Shown here in pieces: positions 12,189 through 19,600 of a stretch of 37,142 bases of DNA; positions within the stretch are counted from its first letter, which is position 1; each line of letters begins with the position of its first letter. Made by a program: the position numbers and the translations under genes. The notes beneath the pieces are model-generated. The model was not told the DNA's origin. It made no database searches and worked only from the letters and a program-made list of their open reading frames with translations. The stretch lies in NCBI GenBank assembly GCA_011052355.1, contig DRJB01000015.1:1-37142 (forward strand). Reading direction: 5' to 3'. The DNA is from Candidatus Kaiserbacteria bacterium. Its GTDB lineage: Bacteria > Patescibacteriota > Minisyncoccia > Phycocordibacterales > Phycocordibacteraceae.

Positions 12189-12254
12189 CCATCACGATGC
12201 TCACTGTACTATTTATATAGTGTGCATAAGTATTACCTATGTAAAGAATATGAT

Positions 12255-12263
12255 TGCTATAAT
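12255..12263 (+). promoter_or_regulatory. extended -10 element TGCTATAAT, 6 nt upstream of ATG 12270 (candidate leaderless start)
   Basis: Read directly. No -35 element was evaluated. Confidence 0.3.
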
Positions 12264-12269
12264 AAAAAT

Positions 12270-13784
12270 ATGCAAGATGAAGAAAAGAACTTAAAAGAGT
12301 ACAGTCCAAAAACTAACGCATTTAAGACACTGATAGATAAAATATATATTCACCGGATGCCGTCATACGGCAATAAGATATTCTTTTCGCTTGGATTTCT
12401 TGCACTTACTTGTTTAACGGTACTTGTGGCAACCGGTATTGTGTTGGCGTTTATGGGCCAAACATGGTGGCTCACAAATCCATGGGGCATATACTTCCGC
12501 AGTGTACACTTGTGGACCGTACAAGCATTTTTTGTAATACTTATATTGCATATTATTGTGGGTTTCTCTACCAGTGGGTTCCGTCCACCACGCAGAATGG
12601 TGTGGGTTTTTGGAGCCATTATATTTGCACTGGTACTTATTCAAACAGAGTTTGGCTACGGTTTGCGTGGTGATTTCTCTTCCCAATATCGCGCGGTCGC
12701 CGGTGCAGATTTTTGGAATGGTGCTCATTTAGGTTATTGGCTTAATCCTCTCAATTACTCGCAGGCATTTGCCATACATGTCGTCATTATTCCTCTTGCC
12801 ATATTATTTTTATTCGTTCTTCACTACATTCTCGTACATACCTATGGTATTTCAAAACCACTTCGCAAAGACATACCCTACAAAGAGGTACCGGCAAATC
12901 ACAATATACTATTCATTCGTGGCGGGGTACTCGTTGTGGCGATTTTGGTGTTGGCGCTCTTCTTTCACTCGCCATATGTTCCGGCAGTACGCATAGCCAA
13001 CATAGCAAATCAAAACCCAACGCTCGTGGCAACAACGATGTTGCAAGAGTTTAATCACACTTCAGGTACGGCAACGTATTTTGACTCCATTGATCCTTAC
13101 ACATTTAATACACGAAGTGTCTTTGTGGTTACCCCTTATAAGCAGTTCTTGATACATAATCAAAACAACAACGCCTGGACAACATTTGTCAATGCATCAC
13201 CAGCTCAACAAAAAGCATATATACAACAAGCAAAATCGTATGTCACCGCTACAAGTACCAACAATGTAGGAACTAGCACGAACGCTGTTGCAAGCACCAC
13301 AAACCCTGTCATCTCCATGATACACACACTAATGCCCATAGCGAAAAGCGGATTGTATCAATCATTATTGAACCAAGAAAATCAAAACTCTAACTACACA
13401 TACACCTTACGCTTCCTGCTTGATATGAATGTATTGCATGACAAAGCAGCATCGCTTCATATGGATACTGCTGAGTACGGTATGGCAAAAGATGAAAATG
13501 AGGCTCATGGTATATGGGTGCTTCCTCCCGGTTCATGGTGGCTCTTACCACTTGGGTGGTCTAACAGCGCTTTTAATCTATTAGAAAATCCCTATGGCGA
13601 CCAAATCGCAGGTGAGATACTTGGAGCGCTCTTGCTCATATTCATTCTCTTCCCCTATATTCCCTATCTAAATCGTCTTCCGGAATTATTGCCTCTTGCA
13701 CCGATTATTCAAAAAGAACCAAAAGAGAAAGAAAGAGGAGAGGAAAAGGAGCCTGACAAAAAAGAAAACGAAGAGATACATTAG
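12270..13784 (+). CDS. di-haem cytochrome b (b6-type N-terminal domain)-like membrane protein with a long unique C-terminal extension
   Basis: VATGIVLAF (helix A). H-x13-H in SVHLWTVQAFFVILILH (helix B). PPRRMVWVFG resembles the PRExxW box. H-x14-H in AIHVVIIPLAILFLFVLH (helix D). The track ORF starts at 12222, and I prefer ATG 12270. Confidence 0.7.
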   Translation: MQDEEKNLKEYSPKTNAFKTLIDKIYIHRMPSYGNKIFFSLGFLALTCLTVLVATGIVLAFMGQTWWLTNPWGIYFRSVHLWTVQAFFVILILHIIVGFSTSGFRPPRRMVWVFGAIIFALVLIQTEFGYGLRGDFSSQYRAVAGADFWNGAHLGYWLNPLNYSQAFAIHVVIIPLAILFLFVLHYILVHTYGISKPLRKDIPYKEVPANHNILFIRGGVLVVAILVLALFFHSPYVPAVRIANIANQNPTLVATTMLQEFNHTSGTATYFDSIDPYTFNTRSVFVVTPYKQFLIHNQNNNAWTTFVNASPAQQKAYIQQAKSYVTATSTNNVGTSTNAVASTTNPVISMIHTLMPIAKSGLYQSLLNQENQNSNYTYTLRFLLDMNVLHDKAASLHMDTAEYGMAKDENEAHGIWVLPPGSWWLLPLGWSNSAFNLLENPYGDQIAGEILGALLLIFILFPYIPYLNRLPELLPLAPIIQKEPKEKERGEEKEPDKKENEEIH

Positions 13785-14690: not shown

Positions 14691-14925
14691 CTTATGCCCC
14701 ACGTATTATTAATGCTGTTTTCATAATTATTTAAAAAAAATTTACTATGCGGAGAGATTGTAACCTTTGCGCGAACCTTTTTTGAGCGAAGCTCCTAACT
14801 TTCCATGCGCCGAGCGCGTGGTGGCTTGCAACAATATCTTACGCGCGGAGAACATGGTGACTCTAAACTTAATCTTACGCATTTGAGTCAACTGTGACGC
14901 GCCACACGCCTCTGCTATCGCTACG

Positions 14926-15047
14926 GCGAACCCGCCCGACAAAACCATTTCCTTACCTTTCTTTTTTCACCTGTCGGCGGAGGAGTTTGGAGAGGAGGCA
15001 AACAAAAAATTGAAAAGGAAATGGTTTTGTCGGGCGGGTTCGCTCAG
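14926..15047. repeat. MITE-like palindromic element, copy A (29-bp perfect terminal inverted arms 14926-14954 / 15015-15043)
   Basis: gcgaacccgcccgacaaaaccatttcctt ... aaggaaatggttttgtcgggcgggttcgc. A related copy lies at 19297-19416 in the same orientation. Confidence 0.8.
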
Positions 15048-15070
15048 AGTTCATTATAACCTAAGTTGGG

Positions 15071-15096
15071 GTATTCTACAATAGGATATACAATAC
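15071..15096 (+). promoter_or_regulatory. candidate C-box-like operator: GTATTCTA-N10-TACAATAC, ending 5 nt before the C-gene ATG
   Basis: Imperfect inverted repeat read directly. Two TACAAT hexamers overlap it. Confidence 0.3.
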
Positions 15097-15101
15097 TAAA
15101 T

Positions 15102-15329
15102 ATGGATAAGTCAATTCATTCAACAAAATATAAAACTGTACTTCAAAATTTACTTAAAGCTCGCCATGAGTTTGGTTTAATGCAGGTTGAAGTTGCAGAA
15201 AAACTTAAAAAACCTCAATCGTTTGTATCAAAAATTGAGCGTGGTGAGCGGAGGTTAGATGTTATTGAATTGGAAGCTTTTGCAAAATTATATAAAAAAA
15301 GTGTGGATTGGTTTTTAATTAAAAAATAA
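15102..15329 (+). CDS. XRE-family HTH protein, controller (C-protein)-like
   Basis: LLKARHEFGLMQVEVAEKLKKPQSFVSKIERGERRLDVIEL is a classic HTH_3 pattern. 75 aa, stop 2 nt before the next ATG. Start placed at ATG 15102 inside the track ORF. Confidence 0.8.
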   Translation: MDKSIHSTKYKTVLQNLLKARHEFGLMQVEVAEKLKKPQSFVSKIERGERRLDVIELEAFAKLYKKSVDWFLIKK

Positions 15330-15331
15330 TT

Positions 15332-16018
15332 ATGACAAAATTCAAAGAATTTACAAATTTTCTAAAAACAGTACAACTTCAAAAATATCGTAAGGAATAC
15401 AGCACAATAAAAATTGTTGAGATGGATTTACCTAAAAATATTCAGGCGATAGAATTACTCTATACAGTCTATTGGGAGGAGAAAAAATTTGTATCGTTTG
15501 AAGATTTTTATAAAAGATATTTACAAGAAAAAGGATCTACTATCGATGAATTCAGAATTAAAACAACAATGTGTGAGGATTGTTTCCGTCGCGGGCTTAA
15601 AGCAAGAATTTACAGAACTTGGGCGGGTTTAATTACTCAAATACATGCTGGATATGTTGCAGAGTCTGTTTTTGGTGATGGTACAGTGTTAATGTCAGAG
15701 AAACTTGATCATCAAGGAGCAGATATAAGGGTAGAATATAAAAGACACGCACTCAACTATCAGGTTAAAAAAACATCGCATGCGGGTGTTAAAAGTAGTA
15801 AACCTTTAGCGAGAAAAAATGTTATGGACGGAGAGCCTATTGATATTTTATATGAAGTACCAGCATGTTTATCTGATCCAAAAACAAAGAAAGGAGAATT
15901 TAGAGTTCCGTACTTAAGATTTTTAGAAGACACTAGGACAGAAACATTTGAAAATGGATTTGTTGTATTTACCGCAGATACTTTCTTGCCAAAGAAAAAA
16001 GAAATTGATGCAAACTAA
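15332..16018 (+). CDS. putative type II restriction endonuclease (PD-(D/E)xK-like)
   Basis: Position (C gene, then this gene, convergent with a methyltransferase). Candidate catalytic core is GADIRVEYK...NYQVKK (D-x12-QxK). No family recognised by eye. Confidence 0.5.
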   Translation: MTKFKEFTNFLKTVQLQKYRKEYSTIKIVEMDLPKNIQAIELLYTVYWEEKKFVSFEDFYKRYLQEKGSTIDEFRIKTTMCEDCFRRGLKARIYRTWAGLITQIHAGYVAESVFGDGTVLMSEKLDHQGADIRVEYKRHALNYQVKKTSHAGVKSSKPLARKNVMDGEPIDILYEVPACLSDPKTKKGEFRVPYLRFLEDTRTETFENGFVVFTADTFLPKKKEIDAN

Positions 16019-17538
16019 AATAATTTTGCTGATACTTTTGTCTCCTTGAGCCATTTTTGTGCAATTTTAATATAGTCAGGATTGATTTCAAAACCTATAT
16101 AGTTTTGTTCTAGTTCTTTGGCAACAACACACTCTGATCCAGTTCCTACAAAAGGAATTAGTACAACCCCACCTTTTTGAGGCAACGATGATTTAATAAG
16201 TTTACGAGTTATCTCTAAAGGTTTTTGTGTAGGGTGCTTCATTACATCGTGCTCTCTGTGTTTTTTTAATTGTTTTGGTTCAAAAACACCTTTGCATGTT
16301 TTACATAAAAACCACCGTTCGGTCATTCCTGCTCCACCAGCAAGAGCTGGTACTTTTATAACATCTCGAGGTAAAGCTCCTCCCTCATGTGCTTTATAAA
16401 CGGTTTCTTTTTCTCCGTTACTAAACCTACCAGCAGTTGCCTTTCTTTTTTTTCCAGCCGCACCATTAAGAAAACCATCTGTGTATGGTTCGCGAACATC
16501 GTCACGATTAAAAACAGGCTTATCTTTCCATGCACATATAATTGATTCATGGCTTCTTTGCCAAAAATGTAACGAAGCAACATTTTTGTTTGTGTAGTGC
16601 CAAATTAGCCATCGTTTATTTATAGGTATCTCAACCGAAAGATGTGCTAATATTTCACTAAAGCCATATATAAAAAGTGTTCCTGTTGGTTTCATTACGC
16701 GAATACACTCATTTATCCAACTTTTACACCATTCAACGTATTCACCAAACTCTCTTTTATCAATATTATTACCGAAATCTTTACCGATATTATAGGGGGG
16801 GTCTACAACAACCACATCACAACTATCATTTGGAAGTTTCCTTAATTCTTGAATAGCATCTCCTAAAATAATTTTATTTAGAGGCAATTTAGAATCCCTT
16901 TTTATTTTGTCTGAGGTAATTATAGATTCTGTTTGTAGTTCCTCTTCATTTTTTATAACATCAATTACAATACCTTGGATAATTAACTCCCTATTTTTTT
17001 GAATTATAATAGGTTCAAGTTTCTCGTTTGCAGGCTGTAGTCTTACATGACCACGCTCTTTATAAAATTTCTTTAGTGTTGCTTCATATCCATCAATCAA
17101 AGCCACGACTTTTTCACCATTGCTAGCTGTGTTTTGATATTTAGCTAGAATAATGTCTCCATTGTGAATATTTTCATCAATCATACTATCTCCAACCACA
17201 CGCAAAGCATAAAATTCTCCCATTCTAGGAACTCGTGATTGTGGGACAGCTATTGTTTCTCTGTCCTGTATTGCCTCAATTGGTTGCCCAGCCGAAATCA
17301 TTCCAAGAAGTGGAACATTTATCATCTTTTCTTTTTCATAAACATCAAGCGAACGAGGTTTATTTTCTCCTTTGTGTAGCAAACCTAAATTTTCCAACTT
17401 TTTTATATGGTAGTGTATTGTTGAAACAGATTTTAGTTTTAATTTCTTTTTAATCTCTTCAAAAGAAGGAGCGTAACCTTTTTTCTTTTTATGTATTTCT
17501 ATAAAGTCTAAAATTTCTTTTTGTCTTTTTGTAGTCAT
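16015..17538 (-). CDS. LexA-like repressor (wHTH + S24 autopeptidase) fused to a beta-class N6/N4 DNA methyltransferase
   Basis: N-terminal KEILDFI..GYAPSFEEI..STIHYHIKKLENLGLL. VPLLGMISA-GQP (Ala83-Gly84), GDSM (Ser118), TLKK (Lys156). Then VVVDPPYNIG (motif IV, checked in the DNA at 16801-16803 for Asp), HPTQKP, and the C-terminal motif I FVGTGSE. Confidence 0.85.
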   Translation of the reverse strand: MTTKRQKEILDFIEIHKKKKGYAPSFEEIKKKLKLKSVSTIHYHIKKLENLGLLHKGENKPRSLDVYEKEKMINVPLLGMISAGQPIEAIQDRETIAVPQSRVPRMGEFYALRVVGDSMIDENIHNGDIILAKYQNTASNGEKVVALIDGYEATLKKFYKERGHVRLQPANEKLEPIIIQKNRELIIQGIVIDVIKNEEELQTESIITSDKIKRDSKLPLNKIILGDAIQELRKLPNDSCDVVVVDPPYNIGKDFGNNIDKREFGEYVEWCKSWINECIRVMKPTGTLFIYGFSEILAHLSVEIPINKRWLIWHYTNKNVASLHFWQRSHESIICAWKDKPVFNRDDVREPYTDGFLNGAAGKKRKATAGRFSNGEKETVYKAHEGGALPRDVIKVPALAGGAGMTERWFLCKTCKGVFEPKQLKKHREHDVMKHPTQKPLEITRKLIKSSLPQKGGVVLIPFVGTGSECVVAKELEQNYIGFEINPDYIKIAQKWLKETKVSAKLF

Positions 17539-17551
17539 ATTTTTATGATTT

Positions 17552-17601
17552 GATTTTCTAATTACTTTCGATTATAATTATATAGAAAATGAGTAGAAAA
17601 T
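17552..17601. promoter_or_regulatory. candidate operator in the divergent intergenic region: ATTTTCTA (17553-17560) inverted to TAGAAAAT (17583-17590), repeated at 17594-17601
   Basis: Read directly. AT-rich context, so a chance occurrence is possible. Confidence 0.25.
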
Positions 17602-17614
17602 ACAAATAAATTAT

Positions 17615-18994
17615 GTGGATATGAATCTAGAAAATATAAATTACATAACAGAAGAAAAATTGCCCGAGGTTAAAACCCTAATTATAGGGATATCTTTATT
17701 TTTGGGTGCTTTTGTTCTTGTTGATAATTTTATAAATCAATTTATTAGTTTAGAAGTCAAAGCTGTAATTTATACGGTGCTTATACTTTCATGGATTTCA
17801 TTTTGGACATTTAAGAAATTTCGTTTACCAAGAAGTAAAAAAGAGGAAGTTGGAATTGTAATTTCTATTTTTTCAGAAAATGAAAAAGAGAGACAGAGGC
17901 TGAAAGCCGATTTTATTGGCAAATTAAAAAAGGATTTTCAACAAGAAGGAATTTTAAATTTTTCTGAAATAATTTTTTTAAAGAATCATTTTTCAAAACA
18001 AATTATAGAATCAAACAATCCAAAAGGTATTTTAGAAAAATTTAACAAAAAAATAAAAGCCCACTTTTATGTTTGGGGTGATGTTAAAAAAAGGACAGAC
18101 GGAGATGAAGGAGAAAAATATTTTTTGAACTTTCAAGGTTATGTTGTTCACAAGCCGATTTCTCAGAATTTAAGTCAAGAGATTTCAAGAGATTTTTCAA
18201 AGGTTCTTCCTTCTGAGGTAAATTTTTTAGAAAAGAGAAGCTTCAGAGGATTTGAGGCTTCGGCAAAGATAGTGCACCTGGCAACAAAATATATTATTGG
18301 AGTTGCTGCTTTTGTTTCTAATGATCCACGACTAGCCTTGCAACTTCATAATGGATTAAAGGAACAGTTTAATACATTTAAACCCTTACCGCCTCACATA
18401 CAGGAGATTAGAAATCGTATACCAATTTTAATCTCAGATGAGCTATTTTGGATTGCAAAGTGGTATTTTGAAAATAATAATATAGAAAAAACAAAAGAGT
18501 TTATACAAAAATCAATAGATGAAAATAATAATAACTATGGAGCATGGTTACTCAAAGCAATGATAGATTTTTCAGTGGACAACAATATAGATGAGGCTCT
18601 TAAGAGTACAAAAAAAGCAAGAGGGTATACTAAAAATAGTTATGAGTGGAGATACAATGAAGCCTTTCTATATTTTTGGAAAGAGGATTACACCAACGCT
18701 TTGCGCTTATGTCAGAAAATTAAAAAACAAAATTATTTAACAGAAGAAGTTACTGTCAAAGAGGTGCGTAAATTTAATTTAAATATTTTGCAAAACAATC
18801 CATCGAAACATCAGTTATATTTTTGGATTGGTTATTTAAGCTGGTTTAAAGAAAAAAATATAGTAAATGCTTTACAAGATTTTGAGAAATTTGAAGAATT
18901 GGCTGATACTAACATGGATATTTTAAAACAAAAATCCTCAGCTTATTTAATAGAAATAAGACAGAAAATGAAAATTGGCATAAAAAATAAATAA
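17615..18994 (+). CDS. membrane-anchored (2 TM) protein with a central alpha/beta region and C-terminal TPR-like repeats
   Basis: Hydrophobic LIIGISLFLGAFVLV and VIYTVLILSWISFWTF. TPR-like YGAWLLKAMIDF..DEALKS, YNEAFLYFWKEDYTNALRLC and YFWIGYLSWFKEKNIVNALQDF. GTG start at 17615, alternative ATG at 17621. Confidence 0.7.
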   Translation: MDMNLENINYITEEKLPEVKTLIIGISLFLGAFVLVDNFINQFISLEVKAVIYTVLILSWISFWTFKKFRLPRSKKEEVGIVISIFSENEKERQRLKADFIGKLKKDFQQEGILNFSEIIFLKNHFSKQIIESNNPKGILEKFNKKIKAHFYVWGDVKKRTDGDEGEKYFLNFQGYVVHKPISQNLSQEISRDFSKVLPSEVNFLEKRSFRGFEASAKIVHLATKYIIGVAAFVSNDPRLALQLHNGLKEQFNTFKPLPPHIQEIRNRIPILISDELFWIAKWYFENNNIEKTKEFIQKSIDENNNNYGAWLLKAMIDFSVDNNIDEALKSTKKARGYTKNSYEWRYNEAFLYFWKEDYTNALRLCQKIKKQNYLTEEVTVKEVRKFNLNILQNNPSKHQLYFWIGYLSWFKEKNIVNALQDFEKFEELADTNMDILKQKSSAYLIEIRQKMKIGIKNK

Positions 18995-19045
18995 GGGGCA
19001 ACGCTTGCGCGCGCAATTGGGTGGGGTAAGCGCAATATGATTTGC

Positions 19046-19075
19046 TTGTGCGTTTAGCACAATCCTTTTTCTTTT
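19046..19075 (+). terminator. intrinsic terminator after the TPR gene
   Basis: ttgtgc-gttta-gcacaa followed by tcctttttcttttc. Confidence 0.45.
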
Positions 19076-19264
19076 CAGTACGATTTACACAAAACTTTAA
19101 TCGGAGGCAATGAGCGAGCCACGAGAACACCGCAGAGGCTTGGCGAAGTATGAGCCAGCCATGCGAGGTGTTTCTCGTTGGCGAACGGACGGACAATTTA
19201 CCACAGGCATAGCGCCAAGTTTGCGAAGAAATGGAGGAGTGGTGGCAGAAAATAGAAAGAAAAA

Positions 19265-19273
19265 TGTTATAAT
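19265..19273 (+). promoter_or_regulatory. extended -10 element TGTTATAAT pointing into repeat copy B and the hairpin-rich region
   Basis: Read directly. No -35 element identified. Confidence 0.25.
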
Positions 19274-19296
19274 ATCAATAAGCCATTTTGGAATTT

Positions 19297-19416
19297 CTGA
19301 GCGAACCCGCCCGACCAAAACCATTTCTTTACCTTTCTTTTCACCTATCGGCGGAGGGGTCTGAGGAGAAGCAGAACAAAAAATTGAAAAGAAAATTATT
19401 TTGGTCGGGCGATCGC
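19297..19416. repeat. MITE-like palindromic element, copy B (left arm intact, right arm degraded)
   Basis: ctgagcgaacccgcccgaccaaaaccatttc ... ttggtcgggcgatcgc. Aligns along its length with copy A. By eye, the centre and right arm are more diverged than the left arm. Confidence 0.75.
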
Positions 19417-19600
19417 ACTCGTCGCAACGAGTGCGATGTGGCGTGGTGGAGTCGTCGTCTCTCGCGCCCTGCAGGGCGCGAGAGAAAGCACGCGGAGCGT
19501 GGAAAACACTTTTGGATTCTGGATTCGGCAGGGGGATTCAGAACAGACGGCACTTCGTACCGACCATATTTTTGGTTCAGAAACCCTTTTCGAAAATCTG

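What the first reader, a model, noticed from the sequence alone, without database searches (positions are those of the whole stretch)
16015..17538. Complete, apparently cleavage-competent LexA module fused in frame to the DNA methyltransferase of an R-M-like cassette
The 507-aa ORF is more than an MTase with an HTH.
- Residues 1 to about 65 look like the LexA winged-helix domain.
- The linker carries VPLLGMISA-GQP, with Ala83-Gly84.
- The S24 fold follows, with GDSM (Ser118) and TLKK (Lys156). These positions almost match E. coli LexA (Ala84-Gly85, Ser119, Lys156).
- After a short linker comes a beta-class MTase: motif IV VVVDPPYNIG, HPTQKP, and motif I FVGTGSE at the C-terminus.
Some R-M methyltransferases carry N-terminal HTH regions for autoregulation. 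A self-cleaving SOS-type repressor covalently attached to the protective methylase is different. It would make methylase targeting or expression, or repression of a neighbouring gene, respond to RecA*/ssDNA or another cleavage trigger. That could act as a damage- or infection-triggered switch that tips the R/M balance or derepresses the divergent TPR gene. I do not recognise this as a described system architecture.
Basis: partly seen in the sequence, partly recalled or inferred. Interest (0 to 1): 0.85.

Follow-up and report, generated by a model that had tools for sequence, protein, structure and literature searches.

The report
Self-cleaving LexA repressor fused to restriction-modification methylase
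A DNA-protecting methylase of a bacterial restriction system carries a complete DNA-damage-sensing LexA repressor on its front end; this undescribed fusion is widespread in ultra-small (CPR) bacteria and probably lets the system switch itself, and sometimes a neighbouring defence gene, on when DNA is damaged.

Summary
ORF 16015-17538(-) encodes a 507-aa protein with LexA_DNA_bind, Peptidase_S24 and N6_N4_Mtase domains. Its N-terminal 197 residues pass NCBI's LexA equivalog cut-off. It is not an artefact: the identical protein occurs on six contigs from several data sets, and relatives occur in 45 mostly CPR/Patescibacteria species.

The gene belongs to a low-GC island that holds a C-protein-controlled, TaqI-type Type II R-M cassette. 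TCGA is about 7-fold depleted in the host flanks.

The same LexA head is fused to at least five unrelated DNA-methyltransferase families, next to different restriction enzymes where I looked. Ala83-Gly84, Ser118 and Lys156 are invariant.

The fusion's own promoter carries an 11-nt-period direct repeat (TTTCTA-N5-TTTCTA). In relatives the repeat sequence changes together with the recognition helix, which argues for autorepression.

In this window a second, overlapping, operator-bearing promoter faces the divergent TM-TPR gene. In relatives that position holds variable defence-type genes.

Self-cleavage and its outcome are inferred, not shown. I favour methylase induction after DNA damage.

I found no published description. 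I rate it a new variant of N-terminal-HTH autoregulated methylases.

The parts
16015..17538 (-). LexA-S24-MTase fusion gene (507 aa plus stop)
   Evidence: ORF; Pfam and NCBIfam domains; identical protein on 6 contigs.
17353..17532 (-). LexA winged-helix DNA-binding domain (residues 3-62; recognition helix S37-VSTIHYHIKKL)
   Evidence: PF01726, 57 bits. The recognition helix co-varies with the operator across loci.
17287..17292 (-). Predicted autocleavage bond Ala83-Gly84
   Evidence: Invariant in alignments A1 and A2. Aligns with E. coli LexA A84-G85.
16963..17313 (-). Peptidase S24 domain (residues 76-192), with Ser118 at 17185-17187 and Lys156 at 17071-17073
   Evidence: PF00717, 97 bits. 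S118 and K156 are invariant. Foldseek TM-score (target-normalised) up to about 0.8 to LexA C-terminal domains, including RecA-bound LexA.
16894..16947 (-). Flexible linker between the LexA C-terminus and the MTase (about residues 198-215)
   Evidence: AF2 pLDDT below 50 for residues 198-211 (26 for the 201-210 block). E. coli LexA ends at the aligned position of VIKN.
16018..16890 (-). Beta-class N6_N4 DNA methyltransferase (motif IV DPPY at 16792-16803, motif I FVGTGSE at 16132-16152)
   Evidence: PF01555, 133 bits. PADLOC MTase_II. PDB relatives M.BceJIV, RsrI, MboIIA and CcrM.
17577..17605 (-). Promoter of the fusion gene: -35 TTGTAT (17600-17605), 17-nt spacer, -10 TATAAT (17577-17582)
   Evidence: Read. 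Homologous to the TTGAYT-17-TATAAT promoter conserved in about 35 related loci. The generic promoter scan missed it because the -35 matches only 3 of 6.
17583..17599 (-). Predicted operator: direct repeat TTTCTA-CTCAT-TTTCTA (period 11) filling the promoter spacer
   Evidence: Exact match; 3 matches at up to 1 mismatch in the window against 0.3 expected. Period 11 is best in 28 of 38 promoters against 4.5 in shuffles. Co-variation with the helix.
17550..17578 (+). Second, outward-facing promoter TTGATT-17-TATAAT with an operator-like repeat TTTCTAATTACTTTCGA (17555-17571); its -10 overlaps the -10 of the fusion-gene promoter
   Evidence: Promoter scan, 10 of 12; operator match with 1 mismatch. 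The same arrangement occurs in L056, and antisense promoters occur in the L005 group and L052.
17614..17622 (+). DnaA-box-like 9-mer TGTGGATAT (one mismatch from TGTGGATAA, the complement of TTATCCACA), overlapping the TPR start codon
   Evidence: A perfect TGTGGATAA lies at the equivalent place in most related loci.
17621..18994 (+). Divergent cargo gene: protein with a hydrophobic N-terminal region followed by TPR-like repeats (457 aa from the ATG)
   Evidence: Weak ANAPC3/TPR hits. Called as 457 aa on the identical contigs. Absent from all 45 related species loci. No PADLOC hit.
15332..16018 (+). TaqI-family Type II restriction endonuclease (228 aa), convergent with the MTase; the two stop ends overlap by 4 bp
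   Evidence: PF09573, 106 bits. PADLOC REase_II. Adjacent in 29 of 45 loci. TCGA observed/expected 0.14 in the host flanks.
15102..15329 (+). C (controller) protein gene, 75 aa, HTH_3
   Evidence: PF01381. Homologues lie upstream of the REase in at least 10 loci.
15053..15091 (+). C-box-like conserved operator region upstream of the C gene (ATTATAACCTAAGTTGGGGTATTCTACAATAGGATATAC)
   Evidence: Conserved across 9 loci, while the sequence further upstream diverges.
14926..15043 (.). Left copy of an imperfect hairpin repeat of about 120 nt that bounds the low-GC island
   Evidence: GC profile.
19296..19411 (.). Right copy of the hairpin repeat that bounds the island, about 190 nt from tRNA-Ser

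Best explanation
The gene encodes the modification enzyme of a mobile, C-protein-controlled, TaqI-type (probably TCGA, N6-adenine) Type II R-M cassette. A complete LexA repressor has been grafted onto its N-terminus as a portable control head.

Step 1 (shown by comparative evidence): the LexA winged helix binds an 11-nt-period direct repeat, TTTCTA-N5-TTTCTA, that fills the spacer of the gene's own promoter. The protein therefore represses its own synthesis and holds the methylase at a set point.

Step 2 (inferred from invariant catalytic and cleavage residues): a RecA*/ssDNA signal, or an equivalent one, stimulates S24 self-cleavage at Ala83-Gly84. This detaches the DNA-binding head from the S24-methylase body.

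Step 3 (inferred): the promoter is derepressed and methylase rises. Because M and R are convergent and overlap with no terminator between them, R transcription may fall. The result would be a built-in, host-independent autoimmunity brake or 'restriction alleviation', acting when the chromosome is cut by its own enzyme or otherwise damaged.

Step 4 (structural inference for this window): the same operator region overlaps an outward-facing promoter. The divergent TM-TPR gene here, and variable defence-type genes in relatives, would then be co-repressed and co-induced.
For: Architecture and intact motifs.

Selection on cleavage chemistry: only 13 residues are invariant among 43 fusion proteins that are 28-52% identical to the first sequence of the alignment. 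Four of the 13 are A83, G84, S118 and K156, and four more lie next to the cleavage or catalytic motifs (G79, G116, M119, T154).

The head is a regulatory module rather than part of one enzyme. Among 43 long relatives of the LexA part, the partner domain is N6_N4 in 30, Eco57I-type in 7, D12/Dam-type in 5, N6_Mtase in 5, MmeI-type in 4 and C5 in 2. Each one examined lies next to a different REase family: Alw26I, Tsp45I, BsoBI or AlwI.

Operator:
- It lies between -35 and -10 of the gene's own promoter in about 34 loci and is rare elsewhere in 433 kb.
- Period 11 is best in 28 of 38 promoters against 4.5 in shuffles.
- The half-site changes with the recognition helix: SVSTxHF/YH with TTTCTA or TTTCGA; SAVSTAHQH with TTTCGTA or TTTCGGT; SAPSTVHQH with TTCGGTA; SAGTVHEH with TTTCGGG; SPSTxHEH with GCTCGGG; SIVTIHEH with TTTTAGG; SLGTAHKH with TTCAC.
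- Direct-repeat LexA motifs of period 11 are an established type, and one paper cites the Patescibacteria SOS study for this class (PMC8565304; PMC7739468).

Autorepression by an N-terminal HTH on the methylase is an established R-M control mode (PMC3874152). The same review notes that unbalanced R-M activity induces SOS.

Variants that keep only the LexA DNA-binding domain on the same MTase still have the repeat operator (L038).

Active TCGA restriction in this lineage: TCGA observed/expected 0.14.

Outward promoter and abutting divergent genes.
Against: - No experiment shows binding, cleavage or induction.
- A host LexA box in the M promoter would give SOS induction without a fusion, so the fusion may serve another purpose.
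- In E. coli, by my own knowledge (Neher et al. 2003), both LexA cleavage fragments are degraded by ClpXP. If the S24-MTase fragment were degraded, damage would lower methylase rather than raise it.
- Variants without S24 exist (L036-L040), so cleavage is dispensable for at least some members.
- The window's -35 (TTGTAT) is weak. Promoter-like matches are not enriched in this AT-rich island (21 against 16.8 expected), so the promoter calls rest on cross-locus conservation.
- RecA was not found in the window or the loci, so its presence in this genome is assumed from general knowledge of CPR genomes.
Confidence: 0.55

Rival explanations
1. Damage- or infection-triggered suicide switch. Self-cleavage marks the S24-MTase fragment for proteolysis or otherwise inactivates it. 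Methylase protection then lapses while the stable REase persists, and the cell is killed by its own enzyme (abortive infection or post-segregational-killing logic).
For: - The cleavage chemistry is strictly conserved.
- Cleavage would leave the N-terminal fragment ending in ...I-S/A-A, resembling the E. coli LexA ...VAA end that ClpX recognises (my own knowledge).
- The cassette sits among defence-type genes.
- R-M systems are known addiction modules (PMC3874152).
Against: - The cleavage site lies about 130 residues upstream of the MTase and is separated from it by a flexible linker, so cleavage alone should not inactivate catalysis.
- Cleavage also derepresses the promoter, so new protein keeps being made.
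- In L054/L055 the REase is in the same operon downstream of the fusion, so both would rise together.
Confidence: 0.15
2. Plain autorepressor. The S24 domain serves only as a dimerisation module that positions two winged helices on the direct repeat. Self-cleavage does not happen or has no physiological role.
For: - Variants with only the DNA-binding domain and no S24 carry the same kind of operator (L038, L040, L036, L037).
- HTH-MTase autorepressors without any protease are well known.
Against: - Ala-Gly, Ser and Lys are invariant across fusions down to about 28% overall identity. Dimerisation alone would not require this.
- The module scores as a true LexA equivalog, and its closest structures include LexA bound to RecA filaments.
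Confidence: 0.15
3. SOS-gated expression platform. The main role of the LexA head and its bidirectional control region is to keep the neighbouring, interchangeable defence cargo silent until DNA damage or phage replication triggers cleavage. The cargo is the TM-TPR protein here, and Pycsar, Schlafen, SMODS-like, trypsin-like or DUF4238 genes elsewhere. The methylase is then mainly the carrier that makes the repressor self-reporting.
For: - The upstream neighbour is divergent in 31 of 41 loci.
- In about 15 loci its start codon lies 3-30 nt beyond the conserved box, leaving no room for a promoter of its own.
- A conserved antisense promoter shares the palindromic -10.
- The window and L056 have operator repeats in both promoters.
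- The cargo is of defence-island type.
Against: - The cargo is not conserved, and 10 loci have co-directional neighbours.
- The antisense promoter is not evident in the L001/L003/L058 groups.
- Defence islands are variable anyway.
- There are no transcript data.
Confidence: 0.1
4. It is the organism's housekeeping SOS repressor, which happens to carry a methylase, or the LexA head tethers the methylase to operator sites for site-directed epigenetic marking.
For: NCBI annotates these proteins simply as 'transcriptional repressor LexA'. The module passes the LexA equivalog threshold.
Against: - The gene lies in a roughly 30% GC island within a roughly 44% GC genome, next to tRNAs.
- Relatives are 70-85% identical across different CPR classes, which indicates horizontal transfer.
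- One locus (L045) also has a separate host-type lexA with a different helix and a palindromic box.
- The operator is confined to the gene's own promoter.
- The presumed target TCGA is not a consistent part of the operator.
Confidence: 0.05

Closest known systems
Type II methyltransferases with an N-terminal HTH that autorepress their own gene (the class reviewed in PMC3874152; M.SsoII/M.Ecl18kI, M.EcoRII and M.MspI are examples I recall from my own knowledge)
   Same: A DNA-binding domain sits at the N-terminus of the modification enzyme. The operator overlaps the enzyme's own promoter. The purpose is to set the M level relative to R. In Ecl18kI a divergent gene is co-controlled by promoter competition.
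   Different: Here the head is a full LexA (winged helix plus S24 autoprotease with an intact cleavage site and Ser/Lys dyad), not a short HTH. That adds a potential damage-inducible off-switch. The head is joined to many MTase classes, and the operator is an 11-nt-period direct repeat.
LexA, the SOS repressor (TIGR00498; PDB 1JHH, 3JSO, 3K2Z, 8TRG)
   Same: Same two-domain fold, Ala-Gly cleavage site and Ser/Lys dyad, scoring above the equivalog cut-off. The protein probably autoregulates. Direct-repeat operators of period 11 are known for some LexA lineages.
   Different: It is covalently extended by a roughly 290-aa DNA methyltransferase. It is encoded in a mobile R-M cassette. No regulon was detected beyond its own control region. 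It coexists with a host-type lexA in at least one genome.
C-protein (controller) regulated R-M systems
   Same: This cassette also has a 75-aa HTH_3 C gene with conserved C-box-like repeats directly upstream of the REase.
   Different: The C protein times R expression. The LexA head is a second, separate controller acting on M and has no counterpart in described C-regulated systems.
DNA-damage-responsive regulators of anti-phage systems (for example CapH/CapP of CBASS and WYL-domain regulators such as BrxR/CapW; named from my own knowledge, with WYL regulators mentioned in the PMC10693628 abstract)
   Same: The concept is the same: a repressor next to a defence system is inactivated by a DNA-damage signal. 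For CapH/CapP the inactivation is proteolytic. Defence expression then rises.
   Different: Those are separate regulator proteins. Here the sensor-repressor is fused to the enzymatic component and uses LexA-type self-cleavage.
Restriction alleviation of Type I R-M (ClpXP degradation of HsdR; PMC11109961)
   Same: The proposed physiological outcome is the same: less self-restriction when unmodified sites or DNA damage arise.
   Different: The mechanism is entirely different. There it is post-translational destruction of R and is not an SOS function. The mechanism proposed here is transcriptional induction of M through repressor self-cleavage, in a Type II system.

Membership tests
LexA (SOS repressor, TIGR00498) | N-terminal LexA-type winged-helix DNA-binding domain | tested here: met
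   PF01726 over residues 3-62, 57 bits against a cut-off of 23.7.
LexA (SOS repressor, TIGR00498) | S24 C-terminal domain with a Ser/Lys dyad and an Ala-Gly cleavage site | tested here: met
   PF00717, 97 bits. A83-G84, S118 and K156 align with E. coli A84-G85, S119 and K156 and are invariant.
LexA (SOS repressor, TIGR00498) | Score above the curated equivalog cut-off | tested here: met
   177.5 bits against 110.95.
LexA (SOS repressor, TIGR00498) | RecA*-stimulated autocleavage | not testable with these tools
   Needs biochemistry. The only indirect support is structural similarity to RecA-bound LexA C-terminal domains.
LexA (SOS repressor, TIGR00498) | Controls a multi-gene SOS regulon as the cell's master repressor | tested here: inconclusive
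   The operator was found only in the gene's own control region, both in the 37-kb window and in 433 kb of related loci. Whole genomes were not available. A separate host-type lexA is present in L045.
Beta-class N6/N4 DNA methyltransferase (PF01555), Type II R-M | Motif IV (D/S)PPY placed before motif I FxGxG (beta order) | tested here: met
   DPPY at 246-249 and FVGTGSE at 463-469, both invariant. PF01555, 133 bits.
Beta-class N6/N4 DNA methyltransferase (PF01555), Type II R-M | Cognate restriction endonuclease adjacent | tested here: met
   An RE_TaqI-family ORF is convergent and abutting in the window and in 29 of 45 loci.
Beta-class N6/N4 DNA methyltransferase (PF01555), Type II R-M | Methylates a defined target (expected TCG-m6A) | not testable with these tools
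   Only indirect support: TCGA is the most depleted 4-mer palindrome in the host flanks (observed/expected 0.14).
HTH-fused autorepressing methyltransferases | DNA-binding domain fused N-terminally to the MTase | tested here: met
HTH-fused autorepressing methyltransferases | Operator overlapping the MTase's own promoter | tested here: met
   A conserved direct repeat lies in the -35/-10 spacer and co-varies with the recognition helix. This is comparative evidence, not a binding assay.
HTH-fused autorepressing methyltransferases | Homology of the head to the SsoII/EcoRII-type N-terminal regions | not tested
   No sequence comparison was made with those proteins. Pfam assigns the head to LexA_DNA_bind plus S24, which those proteins are not known to contain (my own knowledge).
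C-protein controlled R-M system | Small HTH C gene upstream of and co-oriented with the REase, preceded by C-boxes | tested here: met
   HTH_3 gene of 75 aa at 15102-15329. Conserved repeat region at 15053-15091.

The most novel reading that the evidence does not exclude
The LexA head, its co-evolving direct-repeat operator, the overlapping bidirectional promoter pair and the constant DnaA-box-like 9-mer together form a portable 'damage- and replication-sensing control cassette'. This cassette has been plugged repeatedly onto all classes of R-M methyltransferases. It also offers an outward-reading, SOS-gated expression slot in which interchangeable defence genes (Pycsar, Schlafen, SMODS-like, trypsin-like, the TM-TPR gene here) are kept silent until RecA* triggers self-cleavage. 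That would be a two-layer immune switch peculiar to CPR bacteria.
Probability: 0.2. Interest if true: 0.85.

Novelty: new variant of a known kind. Interest (0 to 1): 0.72.

Why it matters
R-M systems must balance killing invaders against killing the host. The known solutions are C-proteins, HTH-methylase autorepression, and ClpXP-based alleviation for Type I systems.

A methylase that carries its own self-cleaving SOS sensor would be a new solution that does not depend on the host. It could couple Type II R-M expression directly to DNA damage, including damage the system inflicts itself.

The recurrence of the fusion across five methylase families, and across many CPR lineages whose biology is barely accessible to experiment, suggests strong selection.

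The family also supplies a natural series of matched helix/operator pairs for studying how LexA specificity evolves and how direct repeats are recognised.

It flags thousands of database entries named only 'transcriptional repressor LexA' that are really R-M methylases.

The key claims can be tested directly with a purified protein and a 90-bp DNA fragment.

Tried and rejected
- Assembly or frameshift artefact: rejected.
- LexA operator upstream of the C/R operon: not found. The conserved sequence there is a separate C-box, and its TTCTAC is part of that box.
- Methylation-sensitive operator with TCGA inside it: TCGA lies in the control region of the window, L056 and L015/L026, but not in the main group. 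Rejected as a general feature.
- TGTGGATAA as a general CPR promoter element: rejected. It occurs about once per locus, at this promoter, and only about 12 other times in 433 kb.
- The flanking 120-nt hairpin repeats as part of the mobile cassette: they are absent from the other loci.
- The TPR gene as a conserved partner: absent from all 45 related species loci. It has no PADLOC hit.
- Rfam scan of the island: only tRNAs.
- AF2 model: only moderate quality (mean pLDDT 67.7, target-recognition region and linker low). I used it only for domain-level matches.
- The Sanchez-Osuna 2017 paper on the Patescibacteria SOS system could not be read. I therefore could not compare the published CPR LexA motif with these operators.
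- Phage and plasmid collections: no fusion gene. The only wide-coverage hits are adjacent but separate cI and MTase genes in two records of one Acinetobacter phage.
- A second LexA or a RecA in the window: none.
Full report

Yes. ORF 16015-17538 on the minus strand encodes 507 aa.
- Pfam places LexA_DNA_bind at residues 3-62, Peptidase_S24 at 76-192 and N6_N4_Mtase at 241-495. All are far above the gathering thresholds.
- NCBIfam's LexA equivalog model TIGR00498 scores 177.5 bits against a cut-off of 110.95, over residues 3-197.
- In an alignment with E. coli LexA these residues fall on A84-G85, S119 and K156. The LexA part runs to the position where E. coli LexA ends, and a linker of about 20 residues then leads into the methylase.
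- An AlphaFold model is only moderate (mean pLDDT 67.7). It shows a confident LexA part, a disordered linker (residues 198-211) and a confident methylase core.
- Foldseek matches full-length LexA for the N-terminal part, including LexA on RecA filaments. It matches beta-class N6-adenine methylases (M.BceJIV, MboIIA, CcrM, RsrI) for the C-terminal part. No solved chain contains both.

**2. Not an artefact, and not rare**

- The identical protein lies on six contigs found across NCBI, ENA and three Logan runs, with the same neighbours.
- More than 120 clusters at 90% identity, 505-510 aa long and 70-85% identical, carry the same three Pfam domains.
- A scan of GTDB species representatives found 45 loci. 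Nearly all are in CPR/Patescibacteria lineages: Kaiser-, Falkow-, Campbell-, Taylor-, Giovannoni-, Jorgensen-, Magasanik-, Yonath-, Yanofsky-, Kuenen-, Nomura-, Buchanan- and Staskawiczbacteria, among others.
- NCBI names them only 'transcriptional repressor LexA'.
- No such fusion exists in 50,697 phage or 72,556 plasmid records.

**3. Context in the window**

- The gene lies in an island of about 4.3 kb with roughly 30% GC, in a genome of roughly 44% GC.
- The island is bounded by an imperfect hairpin repeat of about 120 nt, at 14926-15043 and 19296-19411. It lies next to tRNA-Ser, tRNA-Glu and tRNA-Met genes.
- The island holds four genes:
  - a 75-aa HTH_3 C-protein gene (15102-15329), preceded by a conserved C-box-like region (15053-15091);
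  - a TaqI-family endonuclease (15332-16018; 106 bits);
  - the fusion gene, convergent with the endonuclease so that their ends overlap by 4 bp;
  - a divergent protein (17621-18994) with a hydrophobic N-terminal region and TPR-like repeats.
- The TaqI-like REase is adjacent in 29 of 45 related loci. The TPR gene is adjacent in none of them.
- In the host flanks, TCGA is the most depleted 4-mer palindrome: 10 observed against 70 expected. This fits long exposure to an active TCGA-specific system.

**4. The LexA head is a portable module**

I searched residues 1-200 against 1.84 billion representative proteins.
- The closest relatives are mostly 390-890 aa long, with LexA at the N-terminus. 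Ordinary LexAs of about 200 aa become common only at about 48% identity and below.
- All 43 long hits contain LexA_DNA_bind and Peptidase_S24.
- Their partner domains are N6_N4_Mtase (30), Eco57I-type gamma (7), D12/Dam-type (5), N6_Mtase (5), MmeI-type (4) and C5 DNA_methylase (2).
- Only 13 residues are invariant across these 43 proteins. They include A83, G84, S118 and K156, plus G79, G116, M119 and T154 beside them.
- The four such genes I looked up each sit next to a different restriction-enzyme family: Alw26I, Tsp45I with a C-protein, BsoBI, and AlwI.
- Among the 45 loci there are also three with the same head on a different N6_N4 methylase (L042-L044). Several have only the winged helix, without S24, on the same methylase (L036-L038, L040).

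**5. What the head binds**

Upstream of the fusion gene, about 35 loci share a near-consensus promoter, TTGAYT-17-TATAAT. Its spacer is filled by a direct repeat, TTTCTA-N5-TTTCTA.
- In the window this is TTGTAT (17600-17605), TTTCTACTCATTTTCTA (17583-17599) and TATAAT (17577-17582) on the minus strand.
- In an unbiased search over periods 7-15, period 11 gives the best repeat in 28 of 38 promoters, against 4.5 in shuffles.
- The repeat is essentially confined to this promoter in 433 kb of loci. It is not found upstream of the C/R operon.
- The half-site changes together with the recognition helix:

| Recognition helix | Operator half-site | Loci |
|---|---|---|
| SVSTxHF/YH | TTTCTA or TTTCGA | main group, window, L052 |
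| SAVSTAHQH | TTTCGTA / TTTCGGT | L054 |
| SAPSTVHQH | TTCGGTA | L051 |
| SAGTVHEH | TTTCGGG | L053 |
| SPSTxHEH | GCTCGGG | L023, L030 |
| SIVTIHEH | TTTTAGG | L017 |
| SLGTAHKH | TTCAC | L009 |

The period stays at 11 in every class.

This co-variation is the strongest evidence that the head is a working DNA-binding domain acting on its own promoter, that is, an autorepressor. Direct-repeat LexA motifs with an 11-nt period, such as GTTC-N7-GTTC, are an established class. One paper cites the Patescibacteria SOS study for this class. I could not read that study itself.

**6. A second promoter and the divergent gene**

In the window the plus strand carries TTGATT-17-TATAAT (17550-17578).
- Its spacer holds an operator-like TTTCTAATTACTTTCGA.
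- Its -10 overlaps the -10 of the fusion-gene promoter within a palindromic TATAATTATA.
- It points at the TPR gene.
- The closest relative, L056, has the same layout in front of an unrelated gene.
- The large L005 group has a conserved antisense TTGACT-18-TATAAT that shares the -10 in the same way.

Across loci the upstream neighbour is divergent in 31 cases and co-directional in 10. In about 15 loci its start codon lies only 3-30 nt beyond the conserved block, leaving no room for a promoter of its own.

These neighbours are variable and of defence-island type: a Pycsar cyclase with PycTM, Schlafen/AlbA_2, an SMODS-like nucleotidyltransferase, trypsin-like peptidases, DUF4238, DUF4209 and SEC-C proteins.

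The TPR gene itself, however, is strain-specific cargo.

**7. How it most likely works**

- Shown by comparison: a real LexA head on an R-M methylase, a co-evolving operator in its own promoter, and strict conservation of the cleavage chemistry.
- Inferred: a RecA*-type signal triggers cleavage at Ala83-Gly84, removing the DNA-binding head and derepressing the promoter or promoters.
- My preferred outcome is a rise in methylase. Because M and R converge without a terminator, R transcription may also fall. This would be a host-independent brake on self-restriction. Unbalanced R-M activity is known to induce SOS, and N-terminal-HTH autorepression of methylases is an established mode (PMC3874152).
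- A fusion, rather than a host LexA box, makes sense for a mobile cassette. LexA specificities differ between hosts, while RecA is conserved (inference).

Rivals:
- a suicide switch, if the S24-methylase fragment is degraded;
- S24 serving only as a dimeriser, which the S24-less variants favour but the invariant dyad argues against;
- the head serving mainly as an SOS gate for the neighbouring cargo;
- a housekeeping LexA. This is disfavoured by the low-GC island, the evidence of horizontal transfer, the private operator, and a separate host-type lexA in L045 with a different helix and a palindromic box.

**8. Comparison with what is known, and novelty**

It works like the HTH-methylase autorepressors, and it qualifies as a LexA by every sequence criterion. 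It differs from both:
- no described R-M methylase carries an S24 autoprotease;
- no described LexA carries an enzyme.

Seven full-text searches and targeted reading found no description. This included a 2013 review of R-M regulation and a 2026 preprint on CPR methyltransferases. I cannot exclude a mention in REBASE or in papers that are not held.

I rate it a new variant of a known kind, with interest 0.72.

**9. Limits**

- There are no experimental data and no whole genomes.
- The promoter calls rest on conservation in AT-rich DNA.
- The loci are related, so counts of promoters are not independent. The seven or eight operator classes are the independent units.

Noticed in passing
window 17614-17622 (+); related loci, e.g. 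L001 5915-5923 and L045 5927-5935 and 1359-1367: A perfect DnaA-box 9-mer (TGTGGATAA, the complement of TTATCCACA) lies 35-40 nt upstream of the -10 of the LexA-MTase promoter in most loci. It stays constant while the operator changes, and it marks the edge of the conserved block. It is rare elsewhere in 433 kb. The window has an inverted copy with one mismatch that overlaps the TPR start codon. A copy also lies upstream of the stand-alone host-type lexA in L045. It may link expression to DnaA or replication status, or it may be a junction or recombination site.
   Followed up: partly
window 14926-15043 and 19296-19411: Two copies (76-86% identical) of a hairpin-forming element of about 120 nt flank the low-GC island as direct repeats. 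They are not found in the other loci. They may be a host repeat that served as an insertion site, or a MITE-like element.
   Followed up: partly
window, excluding 14900-19500: TCGA (observed/expected 0.14), GGCC (0.15) and GATC (0.30) are strongly depleted in the host DNA. This suggests a history of exposure to TaqI-, HaeIII- and MboI/DpnII-type restriction.
   Followed up: partly
L036 3889-5064 and 6150-7247; L037 5725-6936; L038 and L040 from 6001: Variants carry only the LexA winged helix (no S24 domain) fused to the same or a related methylase (365-403 aa). L036 has two such genes in tandem R-M units. L038 keeps the period-11 TTTTCTA operator.
   Followed up: partly
L058 2867-4902; L013, L005, L012, L034, L044, L054, L001, L018, L052 upstream of the fusion gene: The divergent genes abutting the control region are variable and of defence-island type: Pycsar cyclase plus PycTM, Schlafen AlbA_2, SMODS-like NTase, trypsin-like peptidases, DUF4238, DUF4209 and SEC-C-motif proteins. 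L058 also has a large serine recombinase beside the C gene.
   Followed up: partly
L004 6820-7566, L015 7526-8152, L021 7555-8364, L030 7557-8204: In five loci (these four plus L003), a methylase domain 76-81% identical to the window's has no TaqI-like gene after it. In these four it is followed instead by an unrelated convergent ORF of 208-269 aa. These may be non-homologous isoschizomer endonucleases.
   Followed up: no
L003 6001-9390: A 1129-aa ORF in which the LexA-MTase reads on into about 620 further residues. It is followed by another methylase-like gene and was not characterised.
   Followed up: no
L054 3121-8282: A LexA-Dam-type methylase heads a same-strand operon with an AlwI-family endonuclease, a second N6_N4 methylase and a DpnI-like (methyl-dependent) endonuclease. 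This is an odd combination, and the LexA-controlled promoter would drive R as well as M.
   Followed up: no
window 12222-13784 (+): A 504-520-aa cytochrome b-like protein (PF00033/PF13631 on the identical contigs) occurs in what is labelled a Kaiserbacteria (CPR) genome. CPR bacteria are generally thought to lack respiratory chains.
   Followed up: no
window 16015-16018 and 16336-16351: The M and R genes converge and overlap by 4 bp with no intergenic terminator. The only terminator-like hairpin downstream of R lies about 320 nt inside the methylase coding region on the + strand. This suggests convergent transcriptional interference or antisense control.
   Followed up: no
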